A stretch of 64,000 bases of DNA from positions 14,942,001-15,006,000 of the forward strand of contig CM102286.1 of assembly GCA_046563655.1 (NCBI GenBank), given 5' to 3'. A model generated the notes under the pieces. The model made no database searches. It saw only the letters and a list, made by a program, of their open reading frames with translations, and was not told where the DNA came from. The first letter of the stretch is position 1; each line of letters begins with the position of its first letter. The stretch comes from Yuukianura sp. NJ FZ-2021 (taxonomy: Eukaryota). Made by a program: the position numbers and the translations under genes. Below are positions 48 through 63,733 of this stretch, piece by piece.

Positions 48-3000
48 TTGGTGAATGTTCCCGAAGATGCTAATGGTCTCCTTGACCTCAATTTCTTGGA
101 AGAGAGGTTAAAAGAAGCCTCGGAGAAGAGGGATGATCTGATTGGTGGAGAGGGGAAACGGAGGCTTCTAATTGGTGCTTTCTCGGCCGCTTCCAACATT
201 AGTGGAATTCCAACGAATGATGTTGCAGTGACTGTTCTGATGCACAAATATGGTGGGATTGCACTGTGGGACTACTCTGCAGCAGCCCCGCATGTTCAAG
301 TGGTCATGAATCCAGTAGTCTTCAGTTCGAATCAACCTCAGGGAGCGGCTAAAAAAGATGCTCTATATTTCTCTGGTCATAAGTTTGTTGGTGGACCACA
401 AACGCCTGGTGAGTTATTGCGAAACTTACAAAAATTATCACCAATTTTTTGGCAATAACCACACAGCTCCACGTGCCTGCTTGGTGTGAAAAACAAAAAG
501 AAAAAATAGCTTTTAGTTTTGTTTTTTGCAAAAAGTTTTGCATATAGCCCATCTTACTTACAGTTTTCTTGCATTTGCTGTAATTTTTGCACATTGATGC
601 TGGAGGGATCTCAACTAGATCTGTTTTTTGTTTGTTGTTCTTTGTCTGGTTTGAGTTGGGATGAAAATGAAGCGTGAGAAATTCCATTAGGATTTTGAGA
701 GATGAAGAGATGAAGGTCACCTTTAGAAGATTGCCTGTCAATGTGCGATTGGACTCGGAGGAAGTGAGTCGTGCTCACAAAAGTCGTTAAAGTTATTTTT
801 AGTTTCCTTTTGAGACAAAGTGATTTTGACTTTGGGAGTTAACTGACAGCTTGAGGTTGAAAGTGTTAATTTCTCAATTAGCAAATACTTTAATTAGCTA
901 AATTTTTGGTTTTTCGCAGGGGTACTTGTTGCAAAGAAATCCTTGTTTGAAAATAGAAGTTCAAGTGTTGGTGGAGGTGGAACAGTTTTCTTTGTCACTG
1001 CTGACTCACATCGATACTTGAAGGTTAGTGGATTTTAATTTTAAATTTAAACTTTTTAAGTTTCGAAACCTACTTTATGCATTTACCGTGTCTGTCTGTT
1101 GGCCACAATTATCTCGAATTTCCCAATATTTCCGGAATCTGTTAAATTCGTTCCTGGTCAAAGGTCTTTTTTTCAAAAGGTCAAAGGTCAACTTTTTCAT
1201 GTTACCGTTCATAAAACCATAGTATACTTAAGTTCAAAAGGGCATGGCCTTGTCACAAGTCGTTTGGGAATGCGTCTTTCGCTACTTTCGTACACTCTGG
1301 GTTACATCCGGATTTTTATTAATATATTACTCCCATTTGATATATGTTAGTACGTTTTTGTTCGCTTGACCTGAATTTTCATGTGAGAACAGAAAGTGGA
1401 ATCTCTGGGTGTTGAAATTTGGAGAATCATTTATTTTTGTAACTTTTGCTTTTATTTTTGCAGAATGTTGAGTTTCGAGAAGAGGGCGGAACGCCAGGGA
1501 TTTTAGAGAGCATTCGACTTGGTTTGGTCTTTCGTCTTCAACAAACTGTTGGATTCCAAAATATTATTTCACGTGAAGCAGTTTACGTCAAGTGAGAAAC
1601 AAGGAAAAATCAAAAATTTAAAAGAAACAAGATTTTGAGTGTCAAAATGAGTCATTTGGGAAATTAAAAATTTGGATTGTGGTTTTTGTCTATTAGGAAA
1701 ACACTTGCGGATTGGTCAAAAATTCCAGAAATCAAGGTTTTAGGACCAACTCACTCTGCACGTTTGCCCATTTTATCATTTCTGATTGAACATGGTCCAT
1801 CGGTGAGTTGACAATTTTGTTTTGTACTTTTTTGATGTTGGTCATTTTGACTTTTTTGTTTACCCAACAATAATTTTTAGTAAACAAAAAGTTAATTAAA
1901 ATGTCATTTTGTGTGTAAATAGGGATACTTTCTACACTACAACTTTGTTACTGCTGTTCTCAATGATTTGTTTGGAATTCAAAGTCGAGGTGGATGTGGC
2001 TGTGCTGGACGTAAGTTGTAAAAAGAAAACTTTCAAAATTTTGAAGAATTTTGAGTAATTTTCAAAATTTCGATTTTTCAGCTTATGCACAGAGTTTGCT
2101 AGGAATCGATTTGGAATTGGCACGAACTTATGAAAATCTTCTGCTCGAAGACTGGTAAGTGTCTACTGCGTTGTTACTTTTGAAATTTCTCAGAACTTTG
2201 TTATGCCAAAGTCGTACTTTGTTATGCTAAAGTTGTTAAAGTTAATTTTAACGTTGTTTTGTTAAGTTGATTAAGATTGAGCAATAACTTTCATACGGAG
2301 AAGTTGTTGATAGTTTTAGTAGTTTTTGGTAAACTGTCTATTGAATGCGTTACTCCAAAAGCTGGGGAGAAGTTGTGGAAATTGATGAGGTGACACAATG
2401 ATGATGTTGAATTTATGACTTTTGGTTTTTGGAGGCGATTAGACCGTGACCATTTGAGAAGACAGCAAGAGGGGTCCTCTTATGAGATTTTCCGTCCAGG
2501 ATTCACACGCATTTCTATTCCGTATCATGCCTCTCATCAAGAAGCAGACTACGTGTCTCAAGCAGTCCAACTAATTGCAAAACACGCCTGGAAAATACTG
2601 CCACTCTACTCTTTCAATCCAGAAACAGCAGAGTTCCACCATCACATCAATTACGTACGAAACCTCTTCACTTTTCAATTTAAAGTTCTCACCTCAAAGT
2701 TCTCGTTCTAAAAAGAGTTTGTGTCATTTGTGGATGCAGCTCCATCAACGACGACTGTGGTTGAGCAACGCCGTCTTTGAAGTTGACGGAATCCGCTCAA
2801 AAGAACGCTCAAGAAACAATAGTGAAGATTATCCAAATTACGAAGAGTGCCTGCAACAAGCCAGAAATATTTTTCAAAACGCCCAAAACGTAAGTTCCTT
2901 AAGTGTTTAGCATTTATTAATTATTACAATACTAAAGAAATGTGGTGGTTTTTTGTCCGTGTTTGGAAACTTCTGGACAGTTGTGGACACTTCTTATCTT

Positions 3001-5828
3001 TTGATCTTTTTGTGAAAAATAATTTTTTTTTTTCGTTTTTAAATAACTTTTGGAGAAAAAATTGTCAAATGTTATTGTGAAATTGTGATTTTGGATGACT
3101 ACTGAACGAGTCTGCGGCGGAGCCCCAGTGAGTATGTGAAGCATGCTTGTGACTACAAAAATTAAATGTGTTCCATTTTTGCATAACGTGGGATTAGGTT
3201 TTATCAACCACTTGACTTAAGTTTTTGTGGTATTATCGCTTGTTTTGCGCAATTGTGAGCCTTGTAGAGTTAAAAGTGTGAAAACAAAGGATTAATTGAA
3301 GTGCAAACTGCATTGTGTTTGTATTTTTATGTTTTTAGCTTTGCAAAAGGAGGAACTTATCAAACCAGACTCTGCTCTTCCATCCCTCGGTGGCCCATCT
3401 TCGGTGGTTTCTACTTCCGTCAGAAAGTAGAGATTTGGTCCTGGAAGAGTCCAGTCCAGCACAAATCAAGAGTCAACGTCCCTTTCAAGTCAAAGTGTTT
3501 CCAGCATCAGAAAGTACGGACGACCTCAGTTGCCAAAACTACGAAGTGGGCAGTGTGCCTTACCAAATGATGCAGTCCGTCTGGGGAACAGCGGAGTCAA
3601 GGTCACCGGTCCACCATATCCGCAGTTCTCAAAGTGGGAGTGACCTCAACTGGACTTCTGGAAACGAAAGTGACAATGAACTGAGGATTCCAGGCACGAC
3701 GGTCACCGGACCGTCGATTCGGTTCTGCGGATCATTCGGCCGAACTGGACGAGAGTCGCCGCTGGTGCTGGCCAAAGTGGACACCCCCATGTCCACGTCC
3801 ATGTCAACGGAACTTCATGGACAGGTCGTGGACGGACAGGTCCGGCCTTGGACGAGTCATGGACAGACCGCCTCAGGCAGTCCAGTGAACATTAGTCAAA
3901 ATGAAGCACAGTTTCAAAGTTTCTCACCGTATCCGGAATACTCACCGCCGCCACATCAACCTACTCAGCCTTATGTCAACCAGTATCCGCAGTATCCTTC
4001 ATCCTCTCCAGTCCCAATTCAACAAAATACTGGCAGCATCAACTTTTACAACAATGGACACACTGTGCAGTCTCCAGTACTGCCGTGCTGTCCTTCTCCT
4101 TTTCCCTCAAATGTGATTTCTCCAGGCATGAATTGTAGTGCACAGTACCCCAATCAAAATGCTGGAAATTATCAAAGTCAAAGTCCAGTTGGAGTGCAGA
4201 CTCAGTTTTTTGATAGGTCAGGGTCACCGCAAGGTCAAGAGCCAAGATCTGGACACACTTTGAGTCCAGCCAGACAGCTCAAGAGTAGTTTTTCACTGGA
4301 TTCTGCTTTTGCAGAAGGGAACAATGAGGACCGTGTGAACATTGCTATGCGCAGAGTCACAAATGAAATTGCACTGGAACTGAAGTCAGAACTGCGTGAA
4401 GTGATTAGTCAAGTGGAGCAGGGGATTGATCCAGACGGAATACGGGAGAGAGCGAATAGTTTTAATACGAAGCATGATCGGAGGCTGGATGCACTCAAAA
4501 AGAGAACAAGGACTTTAAGTGGCCATGTTTTTAATCAAATCCATCGACATCATTCGGAGGAACCGAAAATACCCGACCTCAAGCATCTTCTTCTCGAAGA
4601 AGTTCCGACTTCGGATGGACCGAACGCGAAATCGCTGCCAGCGCTAAAGTCACTTTTACACAAAACTGTGCCGCTCAAGAGTCAAACTGTGAAGAAAAAT
4701 AAAAATGGAACGGCAGGAGTCGGGTGGCGAAGTCCCCCAAAAGAAATTTTCAAACCGACACTGGAGGTAGACAAAACTAAAATTGAAAGTCCTTGGTTTT
4801 TTTAAAATGTTCAGTTTAAATTTTTTTTTATATTTCAGGCTGTTCGTGAGTTTTGCATGATCAAGAACGGTGACAAGATTTTAGTTTGTCTGAGTGGCGG
4901 GAAAGACTCGCTTTCTCTGCTCCATACGATGCGTCAGTTGCAGTTTTTGTTGAAAAAAGAAGAGATTGAGTTTGACCTTGGAGCAGTTACGGTTGACCCC
5001 GCCAGTTCTGCCTATGACCCCCGACCACTCATTCCCTATTTAAAAGCACTCGGAGTCCCTTATTTCTATGAAGAGCAAGGCATCATGCCTCTAGCACTGG
5101 ACAAGGGGTCATCTGGGGTCACTTCTATTTGTAGGTTAGTCATTTTGAGACATTTGATCAGTGATTTGACGTTTCTTGACCTTGAGATAAATTGGAACTT
5201 GGCTCCACTTTAAATTGAAATGTTTGGATTTTATTTTTAGCTTCTGTAGCCGAATGAAACGAGGGAGGATTTATGCGACGGCGAGACGAGAGGGGTACAA
5301 TGTGCTGGCCTTTGGACAGCATTTGGATGACCTTGCAGAAAGTTTCATGATGTCCACTTTTCATAATGGACTCTTACGTACTATGAAAGCCGCCTATACT
5401 ATCAAGTAAGATTGTGCAAGAAAAAAATCGAATAATCGATTACTAATTGAAGTTAATCGATTGATTTTGTTTTAAACAGGGAAGGAGACTTGCGTGTGAT
5501 TCGTCCGTTTGTGAATGTGAGAGAAAAAGCGCTGAGAGATTTTGCAGAGTCGAGTGGACTGCCGATTATTCCTGAAAATTGTCCAGCATGTTTCACGGCT
5601 CCAACGGAACGACATCGTGTGAAGCAGTTGCTGGCTCAACAGGAAATTTTGTTTCCGATGCTGTTTGTGAGTCTCCGCTCAGCACTGCATCCGCTCATGG
5701 CCATCAACAAAACGGGAATGGAAAGTACAGTAAGGTCCAGAAAGAAAAAGAGCGGGGAAAATGGAACGATTGACAACAACAACCAATCAGGAGCAGCGGA
5801 ACTGCTGGATGATGGAGACAGCGAGTGA
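48..5828 (+). CDS. Multi-exon fusion protein: class V PLP-dependent cysteine desulfurase-like domain, S/P/Q-rich linker, TtcA-like tRNA thiolase (PP-loop); 5' end lies upstream of the window
   Basis: GT-AG exons join in frame (approx. 48-408, 920-1023, 1464-1591, 1697-1802, 1923-2010, 2083-2154, 2435-2656, 2740-2889, 3339-4766, 4839-5133, 5242-5406, 5480-5828). N-part motifs: WDYSAAAPH, FSGHKFVGGPQTPG (PLP Lys), REEGGTP, RGGCGCAGP. C-part motifs: LSGGKDS, CSFCSRMKRG, GQHLDD, RVIRP, NCPAC. Confidence 0.88.
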
Positions 5829-6243
5829 CACCGGCATGAAATTAAGCATTGACGATTTATAAATATTTTGGAACATTCGGTACTTTCTGTTCCGGTCTAT
5901 TTCTCTTGTGAGGTCGGTTCGTTTCAGTTTGTGTTTCGTACCGACGATACGACACGTTTCTGAATTAGTTTTTAGGAAGGCGTAATTGTTTGAAACTTAA
6001 CCTAACTTACGGATGCTCTGATGAAGATTTTACGTGAAGAAAATATTATAATGTTATAATTATAATAATAAGATATAGTAATTATGATAGTTTTTATTGT
6101 GCCAATTCGGTTAACGGTACTTTTTTAAATATTAGATATAAATAAATTAAGTATAATTTATAAATTATAAATTATAATTTATAAATATAAATCAGAATTT
6201 TCCAGTGAAAGTGGTTATAGCTATTAGAATTTTTGCTTTTGTT

Positions 6244-7063
6244 TTAGCATTTGCAACCAACGGAGCACTTTGATCCCTCTGCGTCTCCGCAGTTGCAAGT
6301 TACTGTGCAGCAGTCGGATTTTCCAGCATCTCCGCAGTTGCGAGATACTGTGCAGACACACGGTTTTCCAGCATCTCCGCACTTACAAGTTACCTCGCAG
6401 CATTTTTCAGCATCTCCGCACTTACAAGATACTGTCAACGTGCAGCAGTCGGGTTTTCCAGCATCTTCACACTTGCAAGTTACTGTGAAGACGCAGCATT
6501 CCGGTTTTCCAGCATCTCCGCATTTGCAAGATACTGTCGCTGTGCAGCAGTCGGAATTATCTCCGCACTTGGAAGTTGTCACCGTGCAGCAATCCGATTT
6601 TCCAGCATCTCCGCACTTGGAAGTTGTCACTGTGCAGCAGTCGGACTTTCCAGCATCTCCGCCCTTGCAAGTTATAACGCAGCAGTCGCATTTCTCAGCA
6701 TCTCCGCACTTGCAAGATACTGTGAAGACGCAGCATTTTCCAGCATCTCCTCGCTTGCCGGATACTGTCAACACACAGCAGTCGGATTTTCCAGCATTTC
6801 CGCACTTGCAGGCTACTGTTATTTTGCAGCAGTCGGATTTTCCAGTTGCTTCACACGATTGAGCAGTTGTGTTTTCTGTAAATGGAAAAAAGTTACAATG
6901 GTGCTAGGAATTTAGAAAATTCGTAAAAAAAAAAACTTGAAAAGCAGTGTTGTAGAAAGGCAAATTTTGAAAAGAAGAGTTGAAAAAAGGCAAATTTAAA
7001 AAAAGAACAATTTTAAGAAATAACATTTTGAAAAGTTGACTTACTTTGGCAGCAGGACGACAT
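6244..7063 (-). CDS. Long repeat-built metallothionein-like Cys-rich protein (~216 aa)
   Basis: Exon 1 7063-7045 (MSSCCQ, gtaagt donor) splices in frame to exon 2 6875-6244. About 12 repeats of C-K-C-G-D-A-G-K-S-D-C-C-x-V-T, C-terminal GCKC, almost no aromatic residues, MREs upstream. Confidence 0.85.
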
Positions 7064-7649: not shown

Positions 7650-10600
7650 ATGGCAAATCGTTGGAGACAAGTCAGCGATCAAATCATGCAGGATCCACCA
7701 GACACAGACACGCCGGGTATTCCGCCACATTCTTCAAAAATTTCAATCACATATTCCAAAATTACACCATTTTTCAAAATTTCAATCAGAATTTTCATTT
7801 TTTTTTAAATTTTGTTCCTAGCAGATGGAAAAAGGACGCCCTGGGGTCCAAGAATTGGAAAACCAATTGGGAAAGTCAGCAAAGGTTTCTCCTGCATTCC
7901 AAAATTTCAAAACTCCAAAATTAAAAAAAATCACTCAAAATCAAACTCCCGCGTTTTTTTAGCCCGAACTGCCGACGCTAAAGCATTTCTGGTGTACCGT
8001 GACGATGAGACTGACGAGTTCAAACCCACTTCGGTGGCGGCCATTGACGTTTTGTCCACCGTCCCACCGGACAAAAAGCTTGAACCGGCCGAGCGTGAAC
8101 TTGTGGACGCCGTGGCATCAAATCTCGAGCGAAGTCTTTCACTGGAAAAAATAGTTCCGGAACAAAAAGGGCCGGAGATTCCGTACGAAGTTCAAGTGGA
8201 AATTGACAAAATGCCGACATGGCTTGGAGCCATGGTGGCTTTTCGCTATGACAAAATCAAGTCATTCTTTAAAGAAGAGACTTTGAAGTTCCTGAAAGGC
8301 GTTAATTTGAAGATTGACAAAGAGTATCGACCAGAGTTTGCGTACTTTGCGGGTCTCATGACCTCCGACCAGGTCATTTCCTACGAAGATGCAGAAGTGG
8401 ACAAAGAAATTTCAGAAGTGACACTCCAAGCACCAGAAGAAGAAGGGCCGAAAGAAAAACTGCTAAAAAATGACGGCTACGTTGTATTTCTAGTCACTGA
8501 AGCAAGTAAGACCTTTGTTCCATGCCATTTCGTCGAACGAATTCTTCCGAAATTAATTACTTCGAAAGTCAAATTCCTATGTAAAGTAGTTGTTAAGCTA
8601 ACAAAAACTAACATTCGACTTTCGAAGGAATTTGTTTCGCAGTAATTCATTCGACGAAATGGCGTGGTACGGAATGATTCAAGCATTTTTTTTTAAATTT
8701 CAAGTTTCTAAACTTTTTTTTTCGTTGAAAAAGTTGGAAAATGGAAGCGAAACAAAGAGAATTCCAAAATGTGGCATCCTAGACTCGTGCACGCAGTTGC
8801 CAAAAAGTTGCGTCATGACTTGACCTTGAAACCAAGCCCTGCTGACCTCGCTCTCACCAAACAAGATGTCATTCATCATCATCACTCAGACTCTGATGAC
8901 GAATCGGATTTTGACGAATTTGGAAAACTTAAGTGGGAGGTCAACTTTTTCAAAAAAATGAAAGTTTGAAACTTCTTTTCAAAAATTTTGAAAACTGGTT
9001 GTTTTTAGGTCATTCGCAGGCGGGAAGCAGCTCAACGCGACGCTGAATTTGAACTTGAGCTGAGTTTAAGCAAAGTTCCGAAAATACGGAAAGCTCCAGG
9101 ATATGTTGACGCTGAATCGCTGAAATCCAACACAAAACAGCTGGAAATCAAAGTAAAAGCGCTGAAAAGGAGACGCAAAGACAGAGGACTCGGCAAAGTC
9201 GCAGTTCGACGACAACTTTATAGACGCGGTCACTTTCGGCGACATTCGCGGCTGCTTGTCAACCGTTGCGGAGACAAAATGTTTGAAAGTCAACATTCTT
9301 AAAAATTTTGAATTTTTCTTAAAAATTTTGTGTTTTTTAAAGTGTTCGGCCAAAACGGCTCGAGTATCACGTGAGATCCGACGACAGTTTTCATCACTAC
9401 GTCGTCACACTCGTGGGCTCAATTTGGTTTCGCAGTTTTATCATGTTCATGATCTTCCTCAATGCAATCGTCCTCACTATTGAACCACTCGACTACTTCA
9501 GAGACTACGCCATCTACTTCCGGGTCATCGATGAGGTCAGAGGTCAACTTTTTTGGTCACAAAGGTCATTGAGGTCATTGACCTTTTGTATTCCAGTTCT
9601 TTCTGGCAATGTATCTCTTGGAAGCCATTCTGAAAATTTACGCTCATCCCATTGGCTACTGGAAGTCAGGATTCAATGTCTTTGATTTTTGCATTTTGGT
9701 CATTTCTCTAGTCAAGGTCAGCACGGTTTTTTATTCAAAATTTTTGTTTTTTGTTAAGAAATTGAAATTTTTTGGAAAGATGATCAACGATTGGCTGGAT
9801 GTGGCGGACATTCGGTTTCTGCGTGTGCTGCTCATCGTTCGGGCTCTCCGAATTCTCAGAGGAATCTCGCTGTCCATTCAGTTGCAAGTTTTAGTCGCAG
9901 CACTTGCTCAAACAGTCAGAACGCACGTCGTTAGCGTCGTCCTCCTCTTGATTCTTTTACTCTACATCGCTTGTAATGAAATAAATATAATATAATATAA
10001 AATGTAAATATAAAATATAATAAATCTTGTTTGAATTTCAGCAATCGGGGCCTTTTACCTCTTTTCCGATCGAAACCCAGCGTTGCATCGAAGTTGGGGA
10101 AACATTTTTGGAGGGATGCTGCGAATGCTGGTGTTCGTCACTGTGAGTTACAATTCAAATTACTACAAGCATTTATGTTTAATAGGAAAAGAAATCATTT
10201 TAAATTTTTGCAAAATTTTGGTTTTAAATTTTAAAATTTCTGAAAAGATGGATGGATGGACGGACATTTTGGAAGAATTTGAGGTCGGTGGTTTGCGAAC
10301 GCTCGGACGAGCCTTCAATCTCATCTGCATTGTTTTGGGAAACTTTATGTTTTCAAACATCTTCATTGCCATTATCATCATGAACATTACTGAAGCGACG
10401 GAGCTCTACCGCGTAAATTTCAAAATTTGAATCCAAAATTTCAAAGTTTCAGTTGAAAAATTTTAATTTTTGCTAATTGAAATAAACTGGCTTCATTCAG
10501 GAACGAATGCGACGAGACAAACAGGAAATTGTACGACGCAAGAAGGAGAATGTTTTCCGTCGTCAGAAACTGGACATGCGTCAACTTCTTGCACGTCAAA

Positions 10601-11064
10601 AGAAGTCAACGTCAACTGACTTTTACCATTTAGCAGAACAGTTTCAAAAACTACTAAGACATGACGACCTCGTCAAAATGACTGACGTTTGCTCCTCTCC
10701 ATTGTGGTTGGACGCTCTCTACAAAACGCTTCTGCGTACTCATCACACCTCCATTTTGTAAATTGAACTTTTCCTCATGCAACTTTTATCGGCACATGAA
10801 TCAATTCTCATGTTTTTTAGACTGATGAATCTGCATCGTCTCATGGCTGAAAACATGGTTGATTTGAACCGGTTGTACTCAAAAGGCAGAATGGAAGTGA
10901 AGACAATTCGAAGAGGAAGGTACAACAGATACATGCGAATCAAAGCCAAGTTGGCTCTACTCAAAAAAGAAATTTTGAAATTACGAAACGATCCGCCAAA
11001 ACAGCGACTGAGGGTTCGGCTGCCGTCGGATGATTCCGTTCCTCAATCGGCTGAACAACCTTAA
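7650..11064 (+). CDS. CatSper-type (CatSper3-like) single-domain 6TM cation channel alpha subunit with a long N-terminal extension (5' exon linkage less certain)
   Basis: S1 FRSFIMFMIFLNAIVLTIE, S2-S3 EAILKIYA..YWKSGFNVFDF, S4 RFLRVLLIVRALRILRGI, pore VFVT|MDGWTD across intron 10143-10247, S6 GNFMFSNIFIAIIIMNI, then a coiled-coil tail. Confidence 0.8.
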
Positions 11065-11377
11065 CACACCAAGTGCTTCGCAAAAACAAACATTTCAAAA
11101 CAAAAAATTGGTTTTTCAAAAATTTACATTGGTACAAAAGCGTTAAACCATTTCTTAGTTAGTAAGAATATTTAAAAAATGAAAGAAAAACTATAATCAG
11201 CAGATTCAGTGGGTTAGACACGCCTTTGAAGAGAAAGTTATTGATTTTAATTTGAAATGGAAAATGAGCACAAGGAGAGGGAAAGTTTCTCAAAAACTAA
11301 AAATAACACTAGTTTTACGAAATACAAAAAGGTGAAATTTTGAAGCGGTTGTTTCATTTTTTTTTTTTGGAAGTGAG

Positions 11378-13249
11378 ATGGAATCAAGTGTGCAGGAAAA
11401 GTTCAACAGGAATCTGGAGGTAGAAATTCAAATTTTCAAACCAAAACATTTTCGTTTTCTTAGTAAATTTCAAAATAATGTTTGTATTTTGAAGGTTTTG
11501 GAAGAAGTGTTGAGCTACTTGGATTTGGTTGATTTGAAATCAGCGAGATTCGTGTGCAAAAGTTGGGCGTTCGCAGGGGGGAGGGCCTTCAGTCACAAAG
11601 TTCTCGTGGCACATGAACCCTCGTCGCTCGCCAATTTGGAAGAAGTTGCTCAATTTTTAGCCAAACATCACATCAGACACACACTCAAACTGTCTCTGCT
11701 CATGAAATTTCCTTGGCCATGCGACAGAGACTACTACCCGGCATATTCGCTTCACAGCGACCCAACCACCAACACCATTGCCCACTTCAAACCATACTTT
11801 ACGCAGAACAATTGTGACTTGTACGTTGATTGCATTTCAAAAATGTTGCTGCGTCCCCTAGCAACGACCAACACCACAACTGAACTGTACTTGGAACTGA
11901 TGCTGCGGGATGCTGGAGATGCTGGATTCCTCGTCAGCATTTTGACACAAACCACTCATCTGCGCAAACTCGCTCTTGTGCTGGTCAACTCCACGGACGA
12001 AGCAGTCCAAAGTCTGCCGCTCAATTTCAAACTCCCGCCAACTTTCCAGTCACTCGGATTCCGACTTTTTGTGAAACATGAATACGCAGAAGCAATAGTT
12101 GTAATTTAGCAAAAATTCATGAAAATATGAAAGTTTGAGGAATTGTACGAAAAATGAATTGTTTTAAAAATATAGTTGGTGTTCTTTCTTTTGTTGTAGA
12201 CTGGTCATGAGTATCCAGATCAATGGACACTGGAATCCTACATTCACTTTTTGAAAGTATTCGAAAAGCGACTTCGTTTTCTCGACTGTACTTCATATCC
12301 TCTGATCCGTCCACACTTGGATTGCCATACGTACAAAGTCCGATCATGTTCCAAAGCTCTAAAAATTATTTGTGACCTTGATGACCTTGCCCTGCGCAAA
12401 TTTAAAGGGCTGCGTGCCAATCTGTCGAATTATATTTGTTTAACCCCCATTCCGAGACCACTCAAGTACTTGGCAGTCACCAGTGCCAGTCATGACGAGT
12501 ACAGCGGTGTTGAAGAAAACGATTTCAGACGGGAACCTTTCGTTCCCAAAACGCTTTTACCATACGCAACAACTTTAAGGATTTGCCAACTATTTTTGTA
12601 CCCTAGAGATGACTACATCACTTGTAAGAATACGATGCCCCTATTACCAGTACTGGAGGAGTTGAGTATTGTGCAGAGGTCGGCATTCCACGAAACTGAT
12701 ACTCGATCCAGCGATGTCATGAGCCTCCGACTTTTGTTTCTGGTGAGCAATCGATTGGCACAATTCAAAATTTTGAACTATTATTTTTTTGGTTGTCAGG
12801 GTGGATCTGAAAAGTTTAGTTCGGTTCTGCCATCGCTGAAGTCACTCACATACATTTCCGTCCCGTTTGTGGAAAGTACACAAGAATTCACAGAAATTTT
12901 CCCCGGGAAAGACGATAGTGGACTTCCGATTGAAATTCCTCAGCTGGAATTCCTCGTGGTTTCCATGACAACGGACTGCCTCTCTCCGGAACTGAGCCAA
13001 GTGATGGGCATGTTCCCCCAACTCAAAGTGTTGAGACACCTCAGGAAAGTGGAAGGTGGATTTGGAGTTTGTGACCACCAGAGGACCCTTAAGGGCTCAC
13101 TCACCTCGGGGCACTTGACGGGAAAAGTTCTACCACAAGAACCACTACTACAAAACAGTTTCCACCAACTGCGCCTGCGCAGTCACGAATATCCTTTCTT
13201 TTACTCTTATGTTGAACCACACGAGTCGCAAGTCGAGTGTAATGATTAA
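11378..13249 (+). CDS. F-box protein with divergent LRR-like C-terminus
   Basis: VLEEVLSYLDLVDLKSARFVCKSW F-box motif. An intron at ~12101-12200 joins ORFs 11378-12109 and 12251-13249 in frame. Confidence 0.7.
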
Positions 13250-29605: not shown

Positions 29606-30357
29606 ATTACAATTTCTCAATTAACCCCAATTTAATTCATGTAAGATATTCCAAAAACTAAATTAAAAATTAACTAATTGAAGTGAACAAATTGACTTTG
29701 TCTTTTCTTTTTGAAGTTTTAGCTTCCCTCTTATCAGTCGTACGTGACTTGTTTTACAGTTTTTTGTCTGGCGGTTGCCTAATCCTGTGACTTCTGTGAC
29801 CGGCCACTTTTAATTGATTCTTGAGCCTAAATGTCTGCTGAAGTCAAAGTTTTTAAGTGGAACTAAATGGTCCATAAACTTTGAAGCTCTAAGCATACGA
29901 GGAAGTATATGCTTTGTAGAACTAAAACATTTATCTTTAGACACTTTAGTTGTTTCCCATTCATTTTCCGTCCTTAACATCTTAACATTGACACATCAAA
30001 GATAAGAAAGTGACGACTTTTGAAAATTAGTTCACAGTAAGCACTCTTTTCTCCTTTGGTCTTCGACGGCTGAGGTCACGTAGGCAAAAGACGCTCTCAA
30101 ATTAAGCATTTTAGAGTAAAGTTTTTAGTCATTTCAAAAATTCTACAACACAGAAACGCTCTTAAATTTTGAAACTCGCGATTTCTGGACACAAAATCAC
30201 TCCAAATTCATCGTGGCCTCGAGCCGACACATCAGTAGTGTTCAGGTAAGCAAAGATTTTTTAAATTCTAGATTCTTTTTCAATTTCTGATTTTGTCGAA
30301 TTCGGATTTTCAAAATGTAGTACAAAATGTATTTTGAAATTCCAGATTCAGCATTGG

Positions 30358-31323
30358 ATGAGCTTGGAGAAGATGGAACTCGGAAACTCGCCGATAGATG
30401 GCGCTGATACCGAAATTCTGTTTCACGGCATTCCGATTTCTCAGTATTCCCTTTCGGAAACTCAAATTGTCCAGAATCTGGACTCTCCTGATTGGCTGCT
30501 GCGCAAACTCCTCTTCTTCGGCAGTGCTATTGCGTCAATCAGAGATTTAGAACACCTTGTTCCTGGTCCAATTGCAAATACAGTTTTCGGATCCCTCGTA
30601 CTTCTCGTCCGTGAATTTTACAAGTTAGACGAATTCCAAATTCGCTCAATTCTGACAAATCCGGGGATTAGTCGGATCCGACATTTAGTCATTTCAAATT
30701 GTGGTTCAGCCGAGTATTTTCTAGAAGCTTTCTACGCTGCTCGCATAATTTCTGGCGAAATTCTTCTGGAAGAGTTTCCTTATTATGAAAACTACCAACT
30801 TCTAATGTCATTTGAATCTAAATGTCTCCAAGCTTACATCGGAAGTTCCAAATACCGGGAAATTTCAAATGTTGCGTTCATCGGTTCAGGGCCACTTCCT
30901 CTGTCTTCAATTGAGCTGCTCCAGCATTTACCCCGAGGGGCAAAGGTCATGAACTTTGACCTCTCCGATGAAGCCATTGCTCTTGGAGAATCTATCGTCC
31001 GACTACAAAATCTCTCTCATCGCATCTCATTTTCAAATGCTGCGGCACTCGAAATCCAAGATTTGAAGCATGTTGATGTTGTCTATTTAGCAGCTCTCGC
31101 TGGTGGCTCCAATTTCGAAAAACGCCAAATTACGGAACATTTACACAAAATTATGAAACCGGGATCTGTGCTGGTTGCAAGAAGTGCGAGTGGGCTAAGA
31201 TCTTTCATCTATGAAAAACTAACGGAATCTGATTTTGGCAAATTCAAATCTTTCCGCCATTTTGATCCCACGAACAAAGTCATCATCAACTCAATTGCAG
31301 TCGGAATGAAACTGGATTTTTAA
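30358..31323 (+). CDS. Nicotianamine synthase-like protein (intronless CDS, probable 5'UTR intron 30247-30345)
   Basis: Motifs FPYYENYQLL..FE, VAFIGSGPLPLSSI, DVVYLAALAG, K..I..HL.K.MKPGSVLVARSASGLRSFIY, VINS, all typical of the NAS family. Confidence 0.88.
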   Translation: MSLEKMELGNSPIDGADTEILFHGIPISQYSLSETQIVQNLDSPDWLLRKLLFFGSAIASIRDLEHLVPGPIANTVFGSLVLLVREFYKLDEFQIRSILTNPGISRIRHLVISNCGSAEYFLEAFYAARIISGEILLEEFPYYENYQLLMSFESKCLQAYIGSSKYREISNVAFIGSGPLPLSSIELLQHLPRGAKVMNFDLSDEAIALGESIVRLQNLSHRISFSNAAALEIQDLKHVDVVYLAALAGGSNFEKRQITEHLHKIMKPGSVLVARSASGLRSFIYEKLTESDFGKFKSFRHFDPTNKVIINSIAVGMKLDF

Positions 31324-46277: not shown

Positions 46278-62333
<16,056 letters not shown>

Positions 62334-63056: not shown

Positions 63057-63733
63057 ATGAATTTGCGACTTTTCACTTTAGTATATTTTTGTGTGACTGT
63101 GTCATTTAATACTGGAAACGCCGGTAAGCCTAATTTTTTTTCTCCAAATTTTTGAAAAACGGCTAAAATTTCATAAAATGTTTTATTGTAGGGTACACTG
63201 GGCCGATGACATTGGCAGGGCTAAACTTGGTGAAAGAATTTGAAGGTTTCCGGGCCAACTTCTACCGAGATTCAGCAGCAAGACATTTAAATTATATTTA
63301 ATTATACTTTTTAATAACATATAATTAATTATATTTTATTACATTTTGTAGGGAATTCGTACAATTGGTTATGGACATGCGTGTCACGTGGGAGACAAAT
63401 GTGATGGAATTAAGGCTCCGATTTCAAAAGAATTTGGGAGGGACGCAACTTCTCAGTCAAGATTTGAAAATTTTCGAAAACTGTGTCAACCGAAACGTGA
63501 AATTTCCAAATCTGAACGACGCTCAATTTTCAGCTCTTGTTTCATTTTCGTTTAACCTTGGTTGTGGATCGCTACAAAAATCGACACTCTTAAAACTCTT
63601 GAATGCTGGAAAAACAAAAGAAGCGAGTTTGGAATTTAAAAAGTGGAATCGCGGCGGAGGAAAAGTTCTGCCTGGCCTCGTGCGACGACGTGAAGCAGAA
63701 CGTCAACTTTTTTGTTCAAAAGGTGGCTGCTGA
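63057..63733 (+). pseudogene. Secreted GH24 (phage-type) lysozyme, 3 exons, frameshifted by a 4-bp duplication in this assembly
   Basis: Exon 1 63057-63123 is a signal peptide. Exons 63192-63277 and 63352-63733 give EFEGFRANFYRDSAGIRTIGYGH (E-x8-D-x5-T) and LNDAQFSALVSFSFNLG...KWNRGGGKVLPGLVRRREAE. GGGA is duplicated at 63436-63443. Confidence 0.85.

What the first reader, a model, noticed from the sequence alone, without database searches (positions are those of the whole stretch)
7650..11064. CatSper-like sperm channel subunit in an apparent arthropod genome
Seen: a single 6TM domain with an Arg-repeat S4 and the pore sequence T-M-D-G-W-T-D. Known: TxDxW is the CatSper selectivity motif (CatSper3: TVDGWTD); CatSper is patchily distributed and absent from Drosophila and C. 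elegans. Inference: this lineage retains a CatSper complex. The ~500-aa basic N-terminal extension is unusual for a CatSper3-like subunit.
Basis: partly seen in the sequence, partly recalled or inferred. Interest (0 to 1): 0.72.

Follow-up and report, generated by a model that had tools for sequence, protein, structure and literature searches.

The report
Springtail CatSper3 gene with extra domain
This is an intact gene for the CatSper3 pore subunit of the sperm calcium channel in what is most likely a springtail, a group where the gene is already annotated; the one little-known feature is a conserved extra domain at the front of the protein.

Summary
Window 7650-11064 (+) fits a 12-exon, all GT-AG gene model of 807 aa. 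It has one 6TM repeat, an S4 with five Arg, and the filter T|MDGWTD split by an intron.

Three separate exons each hit mouse CatSper3 best in the PDB:
- S2-S5: E 3e-8.
- Pore-S6: E 7e-7, against CatSper4 0.077 and CatSper2 2.3, with CatSper1 not listed.
- Post-S6 tail: E 3e-4.

All named close homologues are springtail proteins: Orchesella cincta 'Cation channel sperm-associated protein 3' (846 aa), O. dallaii, Folsomia candida and Allacma fusca.

The N-terminal extension is about 400 aa, not 500. It belongs to the gene. It is collinear with the Orchesella and Allacma models and with an independent metagenome contig. Variation in related DNA runs is 18 synonymous to 2 non-synonymous in exons, and 0 of 12 listed indels fall in exons.

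The extension contains a conserved helical domain of about 115 aa with no Pfam, PDB or fold match.

CatSper in springtails is already in print (PMC2572835; PMC13674862). This is therefore a new member of a known kind. No transcript data were available, and the rest of the genome could not be searched.

The parts
7650..7716 (+). Exon 1 (tentative): ATG and the first 22 codons
   Evidence: First ATG after an in-frame stop, donor GT at 7717. Weakly conserved. One non-synonymous difference at 7689 in related runs. This is the least certain exon.
7822..7884 (+). Exon 2 (tentative)
   Evidence: AG/GT bounded and keeps the frame. The following 78-nt intron is itself in frame and has no stop, so intron retention cannot be excluded.
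7963..8505 (+). Exon 3: N-terminal extension including the conserved helical domain
   Evidence: tblastn of O. cincta CatSper3 aa 64-176 onto 7980-8318, E 3e-17. 13 representative proteins with E<=0.001. 11 of 11 listed differences in related runs are synonymous. The donor GTAAGA at 8506 is matched by homologues whose frame reads into the intron after '..VTEA'.
7989..8327 (+). Core of the conserved N-terminal domain (aa 53-165). Motifs: R-D/N-D-x-x-D-P-F/Y-K-P-x-S and L-P-x-W-L ... R-Y/F ... F-L
   Evidence: Alignment A1 has invariant P84, W86 and F109 and near-invariant R12, D17, K20 and L87. The AlphaFold2 model is helical, with pLDDT block means mostly 69-89 over exon-3 residues 11-120 and one dip to 53. 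No Pfam, PDB or fold match.
8734..8939 (+). Exon 4: conserved block W-x-P-x-x-V-H-R-x-A-x-x-L-R, then a His/acidic run
   Evidence: Aligns with all four springtail orthologues. 5 of 5 listed differences are synonymous. All listed indels between 8602 and 8685 lie in the 228-nt intron before it.
9009..9280 (+). Exon 5: strongly basic linker (pI 11.4) leading to S1
   Evidence: Only the donor at 9281 keeps the frame.
9343..9535 (+). Exon 6: pre-S1 segment and S1
   Evidence: Aligned with O. cincta aa 404-470. Hydrophobic stretch at aa 412-427.
9597..9716 (+). Exon 7: S2 and S3
   Evidence: Ion_trans match and best PDB hit CatSper3.
9780..9972 (+). Exon 8: S4 (9813-9863, five Arg), S4-S5 linker, S5
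10042..10142 (+). Exon 9: end of S5, pore loop, ends with the filter Thr (10140-10142)
10248..10412 (+). Exon 10: filter M-D-G-W-T-D (10248-10265) and S6
   Evidence: PDB search: CatSper3 E 7.4e-7 (32.4 bits), CatSper4 0.077, CatSper2 2.3, CatSper1 not listed among 31 hits at E<=10.
10501..10757 (+). Exon 11: post-S6 cytosolic tail shared with CatSper3
   Evidence: The only significant PDB hit is mouse CatSper3 residues 289-354, E 2.7e-4. Strongly conserved among springtails (RRQKLDMRQLLARQ ... LLRHDDLV).
10821..11064 (+). Exon 12: basic C-terminal end and stop codon
   Evidence: Aligned with the orthologues (R-Y-N-R ... K-A-K-L-A-L-L-K). TAA at 11062-11064.

Best explanation
The locus is one intact gene for the CatSper3 pore-forming subunit of the sperm cation channel, in a genome that is most likely a springtail's.

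Inferred mechanism, taken from what is established for CatSper in mammals and sea urchins:
- The protein contributes one of four 6TM subunits to a heterotetrameric, Ca2+-selective pore. Its Asp in T-M-D-G-W supplies one carboxylate of the selectivity ring.
- Its five-Arg S4 senses voltage.
- The conserved post-S6 tail helps assembly with the other subunits.
- The channel admits Ca2+ into the sperm flagellum to switch or steer motility.

Specific to the springtail lineage, the subunit carries a cytosolic extension of about 400 aa. It consists of a conserved acidic helical domain of about 115 aa, a second short conserved helix block, an acidic run, and a polybasic linker that runs straight into S1. 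The most likely role of this extension is as a docking or regulatory module on the cytosolic face of the channel.

Shown here: the gene structure, the family assignment, the linkage and conservation of the extension, and purifying selection. Inferred: expression in sperm, the partners, ion selectivity, and the role of the extension.
For: **Family assignment**
- Three non-overlapping pieces of the window each rank CatSper3 first in the PDB: E 2.8e-8; next are NavAb-type constructs at 2.7e-5; E 7.4e-7; CatSper4 0.077, CatSper2 2.3; E 2.7e-4; the only other row is at 0.99.
- The full-length O. cincta orthologue matches mouse CatSper3 in one stretch, 421-739 against 33-350, at 156 bits, E 1.1e-44.
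- Pfam Ion_trans matches once.

**Orthologues**
- All 5 close hits (out of 7 at E<=1e-10) and both hits are springtail proteins.
- The model aligns end to end with them: 329/777, 285/667 and 308/734 identical residues.

**One gene, not two**
- All junctions are in phase and the introns are 61-228 nt.
- The same order of extension, linker, channel and tail is seen in the O. cincta, O. dallaii and A. fusca models. It is also seen on an independent 15.6-kb metagenome contig, L001, within 3.4 kb on one strand.

**Constraint**
- Of the 40 substitutions listed (of 124) between the window and contigs of two DNA runs, 20 lie in exons. 18 of those are synonymous, including 16 of 17 in extension exons 3-5.
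- 0 of the 12 indels listed (of 18) lie in exons, although exons make up 71% of the span.

**Domain**
- 13 representative proteins match exon 3 at E<=0.001.
- Conserved columns; helical model.
Against: - No RNA evidence was available, so the junctions rest on sequence logic and on other species' predicted models. Exons 1-2 in particular are tentative.
- No tree with CatSper1, 2 and 4 was built. The word-indexed searches returned no named non-springtail CatSper sequences, so the paralogue assignment rests on ranked PDB scores.
- CatSper1, 2, 4 and the auxiliary subunits could not be sought in this genome.
- The F. candida RefSeq model (762 aa) lacks the core N-terminal domain, so the domain is either dispensable there or missed by that model.
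- Orchesella has a second CatSper3-type gene (P0025), so subunit composition in springtails may differ from the mammalian 1:1:1:1.
- The role proposed for the extension has no direct support. No fold or family match was found.
Confidence: 0.85

Rival explanations
1. The gene encodes a CatSper3-derived subunit that no longer works in a canonical four-subunit CatSper complex. It might form homotetramers, pair with its type-B paralogue, or act outside sperm.
For: - Orchesella carries two CatSper3-type genes (P0002 and P0025), and the metagenome locus L001 has a type-B-like tail.
- A butterfly is reported to keep only two alpha subunits (PMC6660944, section 16).
- F. candida is, from recall, commonly parthenogenetic, yet it keeps an intact-looking orthologue (P0003).
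- The large lineage-specific extension shows the subunit has changed.
Against: - Other CatSper parts are reported for springtails: a CatSper4-like EST (PMC2572835) and O. cincta CatSper1 (PMC13674862).
- A TMEM249-like gene is noted in this same genome (scan note, unchecked).
- The filter, S4 and the CatSper3-specific tail are all retained.
Confidence: 0.12
2. There are two adjacent genes: an upstream gene for a soluble helical protein (7650-9280) and a canonical short CatSper3 gene starting near 9343. Gene predictors would have merged them because they stay neighbours in springtails.
For: - No transcript data exist for the window (one search listed no RNA holder).
- The supporting orthologue models are predictions.
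- A. fusca models also carry a further N-terminal MSP domain that may itself be a merge.
Against: - Only 62 nt separate exon 5 from the S1 exon. The frame needs two bases from exon 5, and there is no Met to start a protein between the intron and S1.
- The basic linker aligns right up to S1 in all four orthologues.
- The same tight collinear order is present on L001, which has different intron positions.
- The NCBI LOC-numbered model of F. candida also joins the conserved blocks 3-5 to the channel.
Confidence: 0.05
3. The locus is a decaying or silent relic of CatSper3.
For: CatSper genes have been lost repeatedly in animals (PMC5553355 and PMC2572835, passages). No expression data are available here.
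Against: - The 807-codon frame is open and all 11 introns are canonical.
- There are 18 synonymous against 2 non-synonymous listed differences, and no listed indel lies in an exon.
- Key residues are conserved.
Confidence: 0.03

Closest known systems
Orchesella cincta 'Cation channel sperm-associated protein 3' (846 aa, P0002). Also O. dallaii (P0001/P0023), Folsomia candida LOC118438444 (P0003) and Allacma fusca (P0004/P0005).
   Same: The overall layout is the same: conserved N-terminal helical domain, a second conserved block, an acidic run, a basic linker, 6TM with a T-x-D-G-W-T filter, and a conserved post-S6 tail. Identity is 42-43% over 667-777 aligned positions and about 55% in S2-S5.
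   Different: - The window's protein sits on a long branch (0.63) and groups with Allacma at 93/89 support rather than with Orchesella or Folsomia.
- The Allacma models add an MSP domain, which is absent from the window.
- The Folsomia model lacks the core N-terminal domain.
Mouse CatSper3 (PDB 7eeb chain C), and the CatSper3 chain of 9ubw/9ubx
   Same: - Single 6TM repeat.
- The filter reads TVDGWTD in the mouse and TMDGWTD here.
- S6 and the post-S6 tail align.
   Different: - The mouse protein is 395 aa with about 30-50 residues before the aligned core. The springtail form has about 400.
- Its aligned S4 region shows fewer basic residues in the printed alignment.
Mammalian CatSper1 N-terminal domain
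   Same: It is also a long cytosolic N-terminal extension on one pore subunit, variable between lineages. It has been proposed to tune activation and contacts between neighbouring complexes (PMC13674862, passages).
   Different: - It sits on a different subunit.
- It is His-rich and described as phase-separation-prone. Here the core is a conserved acidic helical domain with 0 His.
- No sequence relationship was seen.
- That paper states that the other subunits are largely conserved, apart from CatSper1's variation in length.
Bacterial single-repeat Nav channels (NavAb, NavMs, NaChBac)
   Same: Single 6TM repeat and the same superfamily. They are the next-best single-repeat hits.
   Different: - Their scores are lower: 27.9 against 37.6 bits, and 90.8 against 156 bits.
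- They lack the CatSper3-type tail.
- The window gene has 11 spliceosomal introns.

Membership tests
CatSper pore-forming subunits, CatSper3 orthogroup | Single-repeat 6TM voltage-gated-like channel domain (Ion_trans) | tested here: met
   PF00520 matches once: E 6.3e-12, 45.6 bits, above the cut-off of 25. The orthologue P0002 has one Ion_trans at 438-664.
CatSper pore-forming subunits, CatSper3 orthogroup | Pore motif T/S-x-D/E-x-W with an acidic filter residue | tested here: met
   T|MDGWTD at 10140-10142 and 10248-10265, aligned to mouse CatSper3 TVDGWTD.
CatSper pore-forming subunits, CatSper3 orthogroup | Closer to CatSper3 than to CatSper1, 2, 4 or other channel classes | tested here: met
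   - Exon 10: CatSper3 32.4 bits, CatSper4 16.7, CatSper2 12.1, CatSper1 not among 31 hits at E<=10.
- CatSper3 is also first.
- This is a ranking test against solved mouse chains and the 9ubw/9ubx CatSper chains.
CatSper pore-forming subunits, CatSper3 orthogroup | Post-S6 cytosolic tail homologous to that of CatSper3 | tested here: met
   Exon 11 matches mouse CatSper3 residues 289-354, E 2.7e-4, the only significant hit. P0002 aligns through residue 739.
CatSper pore-forming subunits, CatSper3 orthogroup | Co-occurrence with CatSper1, 2, 4 and auxiliary subunits in the same genome | not testable with these tools
   No whole genome is held. The only leads are the scan note e1-7496595 (a TMEM249-like gene in the same genome, unchecked) and papers on other springtails.
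CatSper pore-forming subunits, CatSper3 orthogroup | Testis or sperm-flagellum expression, and an alkalinisation- and voltage-activated Ca2+ current | not testable with these tools
   No RNA run was listed for the stretch. This needs bench work.
Two-pore channels (TPC) | Two tandem 6TM repeats in one polypeptide | tested here: not met
   The 807-aa model and the 846-aa orthologue each have a single Ion_trans repeat. No chain named as a two-pore channel is among the 60 rows listed.
Four-repeat Cav/Nav channels | Four homologous repeats in one chain | tested here: not met
   There is one repeat only. Cav and Nav chains reach similar summed scores only by matching the single repeat 4-5 times ('stretches' column).
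Bacterial Nav (BacNav) | Prokaryotic, intron-less protein of about 270 aa with a T-L-E-S-W type filter (the filter motif is recalled) | tested here: not met
   The gene has 11 spliceosomal introns and Asp, not Glu, at the filter position. BacNav scores are lower than CatSper3 scores.

The most novel reading that the evidence does not exclude
The conserved N-terminal helical domain and polybasic linker of springtail CatSper3 could be a new, lineage-specific cytosolic module built into a pore subunit. It could dock a regulator or link neighbouring channels. That would take over a job done in mammals by the CatSper1 N-terminal domain or by separate cytosolic subunits. If so, animals with spermatophore-based sperm transfer would have rewired how the sperm Ca2+ channel is controlled.
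Probability: 0.3. Interest if true: 0.5.

Novelty: new member of a known kind. Interest (0 to 1): 0.3.

Why it matters
The finding adds one more divergent springtail lineage to the arthropods that keep CatSper. That is useful for mapping the repeated losses of this channel.

It also brings out something public annotation contains but no paper found in my searches describes. Springtail CatSper3 carries a conserved folded domain of unknown family ahead of the channel. A 2026 comparative study states that, apart from CatSper1, the subunits are largely conserved and do not show CatSper1's variation in length (PMC13674862). Springtail CatSper3 is a counter-example and a possible handle on how the channel is regulated in animals that transfer sperm by spermatophore.

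The gene family assignment itself is ordinary.

Tried and rejected
- **Whole-genome search** for other CatSper subunits, sNHE and soluble adenylyl cyclase: not possible, because no genome is held.
- **RNA evidence:** no RNA holder was listed for the stretch. All 5 runs listed are DNA contigs.
- **Phylogeny against CatSper1-4, TPC and Nav:** not done.
  - The two word-indexed searches with the O. cincta channel region returned only springtail proteins, two protist channels and bacterial ion transporters (7 hits, 62).
  - PDB chains are not retrievable as sequences.
  - Ranked PDB scores were used instead.
- **Identity of the N-terminal domain.** All of these were blank:
  - Pfam on the window pieces and on all 15 members of A1 (best E 0.13).
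  - PDB by sequence (one row at E 0.23) and by profile (one row at E 1.6).
  - ESM Atlas by features (no usable hit) and by structure (TM <= 0.28, all bacterial).
  - Foldseek against the PDB (0 of 65 rows at E <= 0.001).
  - VIA-align wide (best Z 5.0 over 52 residues, generic helices).
- **Names or taxa for the 13 relatives of the domain:** 10 were looked up. All come from JGI/IMG, Logan, ENA or NCBI records on contigs of 1.3-15.6 kb, with no informative name.
A single-protein search gave one locus, L001.
- **An MSP domain upstream, as in the Allacma models:** no tblastn hit at E <= 1 anywhere in the window.
- **Alternative start at ATG 7825:** rejected because its frame does not join exon 3.
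- **Supplements of PMC6660944** were searched for springtail and arthropod names: 0 occurrences. The PDFs yielded only 11,164 characters of text. Figure 4 is not held, so I cannot say which arthropods that study scored.
Full report
**1. What is in the sequence**

The window is eukaryotic DNA of about 38-42% G+C with short introns. Between 7650 and 11064 on the + strand I built a 12-exon model:
- 7650-7716, 7822-7884, 7963-8505, 8734-8939, 9009-9280, 9343-9535
- 9597-9716, 9780-9972, 10042-10142, 10248-10412, 10501-10757, 10821-11064

All 11 introns are GT-AG and 61-228 nt long. The frame is open for 807 codons.

- one 6TM repeat;
- an S4 with five Arg (9813-9863);
- the filter T-M-D-G-W-T-D. 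An intron splits it between T (10140-10142) and M (10248). The orthologues carry the motif uninterrupted.

The extension before S1 is about 400 aa rather than 500. It is composite: an acidic helical core, an acidic variable part, and a very basic linker (pI 4.8, 4.1 and 11.4; overall 9.2). No ORF longer than 112 aa lies on the opposite strand inside the gene.

**2. Which family**

| Query | Best PDB hits | Next hits |
|---|---|---|
| S2-S5 frame | two CatSper3 entries, E 2.8e-8 and 7.2e-8 | NavAb-type chains from 2.7e-5 (102 sequences at E<=1) |
| Pore-S6 exon alone | CatSper3, 32.4 bits, E 7.4e-7 | Cav2.2 0.0014; CatSper4 0.077; CatSper2 2.3; CatSper1 not among the 31 rows at E<=10 |
| Post-S6 exon | mouse CatSper3 residues 289-354, E 2.7e-4 | only one other row, at E 0.99 |

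Pfam finds Ion_trans once.

The full-length O. cincta orthologue matches mouse CatSper3 in a single stretch from before S1 to well past S6, at 156 bits and E 1.1e-44. Four-repeat Cav and Nav chains reach similar totals only by matching the one repeat four or five times. BacNavs reach 91 bits. No chain named as a two-pore channel is among the 60 rows listed there.

The CatSper3 assignment is therefore well supported. It rests on ranked scores, not on a tree with CatSper1-4.

**3. Whose genome**

- With the S2-S5 frame, the 5.8-billion-protein index returned two proteins: Orchesella dallaii, and Orchesella cincta 'Cation channel sperm-associated protein 3'.
- With the O. cincta channel region it returned 7 proteins at E<=1e-10. 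Five are springtail proteins (O. cincta, O. dallaii, Folsomia candida LOC118438444, and two Allacma fusca models). Two are protist channels at 27-28% identity.
- The search among shorter proteins added springtail fragments, a second O. cincta 'CatSper3' (P0025), and bacterial ion transporters (62 hits).
- The model is 42-43% identical to the full-length springtail proteins.
- In a tree of the pore-to-C-terminus region (10 rows, midpoint root) it lies inside springtail diversity. It groups with Allacma at 93/89 support, on a long branch.
- Several earlier scan notes on this genome also say 'probably a springtail'. They are unchecked and are not independent proof.

I conclude that the genome is a collembolan, or something very close to one.

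**4. The N-terminal extension belongs to the gene and is under constraint**

- O. cincta residues 64-176 align to 7980-8318 (E 3e-17), and residues 237-406 align to exons 4-5. The multiple alignment is collinear from the first conserved block to the C-terminus.
- Only 62 nt separate exon 5 from the S1 exon, and the codon across that junction needs both exons.
- An independent 15.6-kb metagenome contig (L001) carries the same order within 3.4 kb on one strand: N-terminal domain (7713-8087), linker (8673-9509), channel (9641-10393) and tail (10425-11086). Its intron positions differ and its tail is type-B-like. The architecture therefore appears to predate the A/B duplication seen in Orchesella.
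- I laid contigs of two DNA runs on the gene: one of the probable source organism, and one of a second coded organism.
  - 40 substitutions were listed, of 124 in all. 20 fall in my exons, and 18 of those are synonymous. In extension exons 3-5 the count is 16 synonymous and 1 non-synonymous.
  - None of the 12 indels listed (of 18) falls in an exon, although exons are 71% of the span.
  - All six listed indels at 8602-8611 and the one at 8685 lie in the open-frame stretch that I call intron 3.
  - Only the best-supported differences were shown, so these counts are a sample.

**5. What the extension is**

Exon 3 (180 aa) scored against 1.84 billion representatives found 13 proteins at E<=0.001 and 4 at E<=1e-10. 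All are short ORFs from metagenome or Logan contigs. Several of them read on into the intron right after the residues that end my exon 3, which supports that donor.

The alignment shows a domain of about 115 aa with these motifs:
- R-D/N-D-x-x-D-P-F/Y-K-P-x-S
- L-P-x-W-L
- R-Y/F ... F-L

P84, W86 and F109 are invariant.

AlphaFold2 with this alignment gives an all-helical domain. Mean pLDDT is 66, and block means over residues 11-120 run mostly 69-89, with one dip to 53. It has no Pfam family, no PDB relative by sequence or profile, no Atlas look-alike, and no convincing fold match.

Wherever context is visible, the linker and the channel follow the domain. This holds for the window, the O. 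cincta, O. dallaii and A. fusca models and L001, and partly for P0014 and P0018. The F. candida model lacks the core domain but keeps the later blocks.

**6. How it probably works**

By homology with the solved mouse complex and with the physiology established in mammals and sea urchins, this subunit should be one quarter of a heterotetrameric Ca2+-selective pore in the sperm flagellum.
- Its Asp would contribute to the selectivity ring.
- Its Arg-rich S4 would contribute to voltage sensing.
- Its conserved tail would contribute to assembly.

The cytosolic extension ends in a polybasic segment directly before S1. It is best read as a docking or regulatory module. That reading is inference only.

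**7. What is already known**

- Cai and Clapham 2008 reported a CatSper4-like EST from the Arctic springtail (PMC2572835, passage).
- Romero and Nishigaki 2019 describe a heterogeneous distribution in arthropods. Their Figure 4 is not viewable here and their supplements gave no text hits (PMC6660944, passages and section 16).
- A 2026 PLoS Biology paper lists an Orchesella cincta CatSper1 of 633 aa. It states that the subunits other than CatSper1 are largely conserved and lack its variation in length (PMC13674862, passages).
- Cooper and Phadnis 2017 still summarise CatSper as lost in the lineage leading to arthropods (PMC5553355, passage).
- Full-text search results:
  - 'CatSper' with 'Collembola': 0 papers.
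  - 'CatSper' with 'springtail': 4 papers, of which the two above bear on CatSper genes in springtails.
  - 'CatSper3' with 'N-terminal extension': 1 unrelated paper.

So CatSper in springtails is known, and the gene is annotated. I found no description of the extension.

**8. Verdict**

This is a real, intact and correctly recognised CatSper3 gene. It is a new member of a known kind, in a lineage where the family is already on record. The conserved extra N-terminal domain is the only part with some novelty. Interest is modest.

Noticed in passing
window 30265-31320 (+): A single 352-aa open frame matches the nicotianamine synthase family (Pfam NAS PF03059, E 1e-48). From recall, this family is typical of plants, fungi and archaea, so in an animal genome it is a candidate horizontally acquired gene.
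   Followed up: partly
window 63329-63730 (+): An open frame matches phage-type lysozyme (Pfam PF00959, E 2.6e-31), in an animal genome. This is another possible acquired gene.
   Followed up: partly
window 6244-6915: A repetitive stretch just upstream of the gene is open in three frames on both strands. The minus-strand frame reads as Cys-rich repeats of the type C-K-C-G-D-A-G-K-S-D-C-C. It has no Pfam match.
   Followed up: partly
window 50001-52000: G+C content drops to 12.5% over this 2-kb bin, against 31-43% elsewhere. I did not look at it further.
   Followed up: no
P0004 / P0005 (Allacma fusca models), residues 37-124: The Allacma CatSper3 models begin with an MSP (major sperm protein) domain, PF00635, E 4.5e-12. 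It is absent from the window and from the Orchesella and Folsomia models. It is either a merged neighbouring gene or a lineage-specific fusion.
   Followed up: partly
P0025, P0027, P0028 and L001 10425-11086: A second, faster-evolving CatSper3-type lineage ('type B') exists in Orchesella cincta and in metagenome contigs. On L001 it also carries the N-terminal domain.
   Followed up: partly
window 8536-8769 (intron 3): Contig depth in run X1 rises to 2,365-6,087 in the two bins covering 8536-8769, against roughly 180-610 in the other bins. There are many loose ends and an opposite-strand joint at 8551/8653. This suggests a dispersed repeat inside the 228-nt intron.
   Followed up: no
window 11336-13249 (+): The gene immediately downstream on the same strand begins with an F-box (PF00646, E 1.7e-6), followed by a long ORF with no family match.
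   Followed up: no
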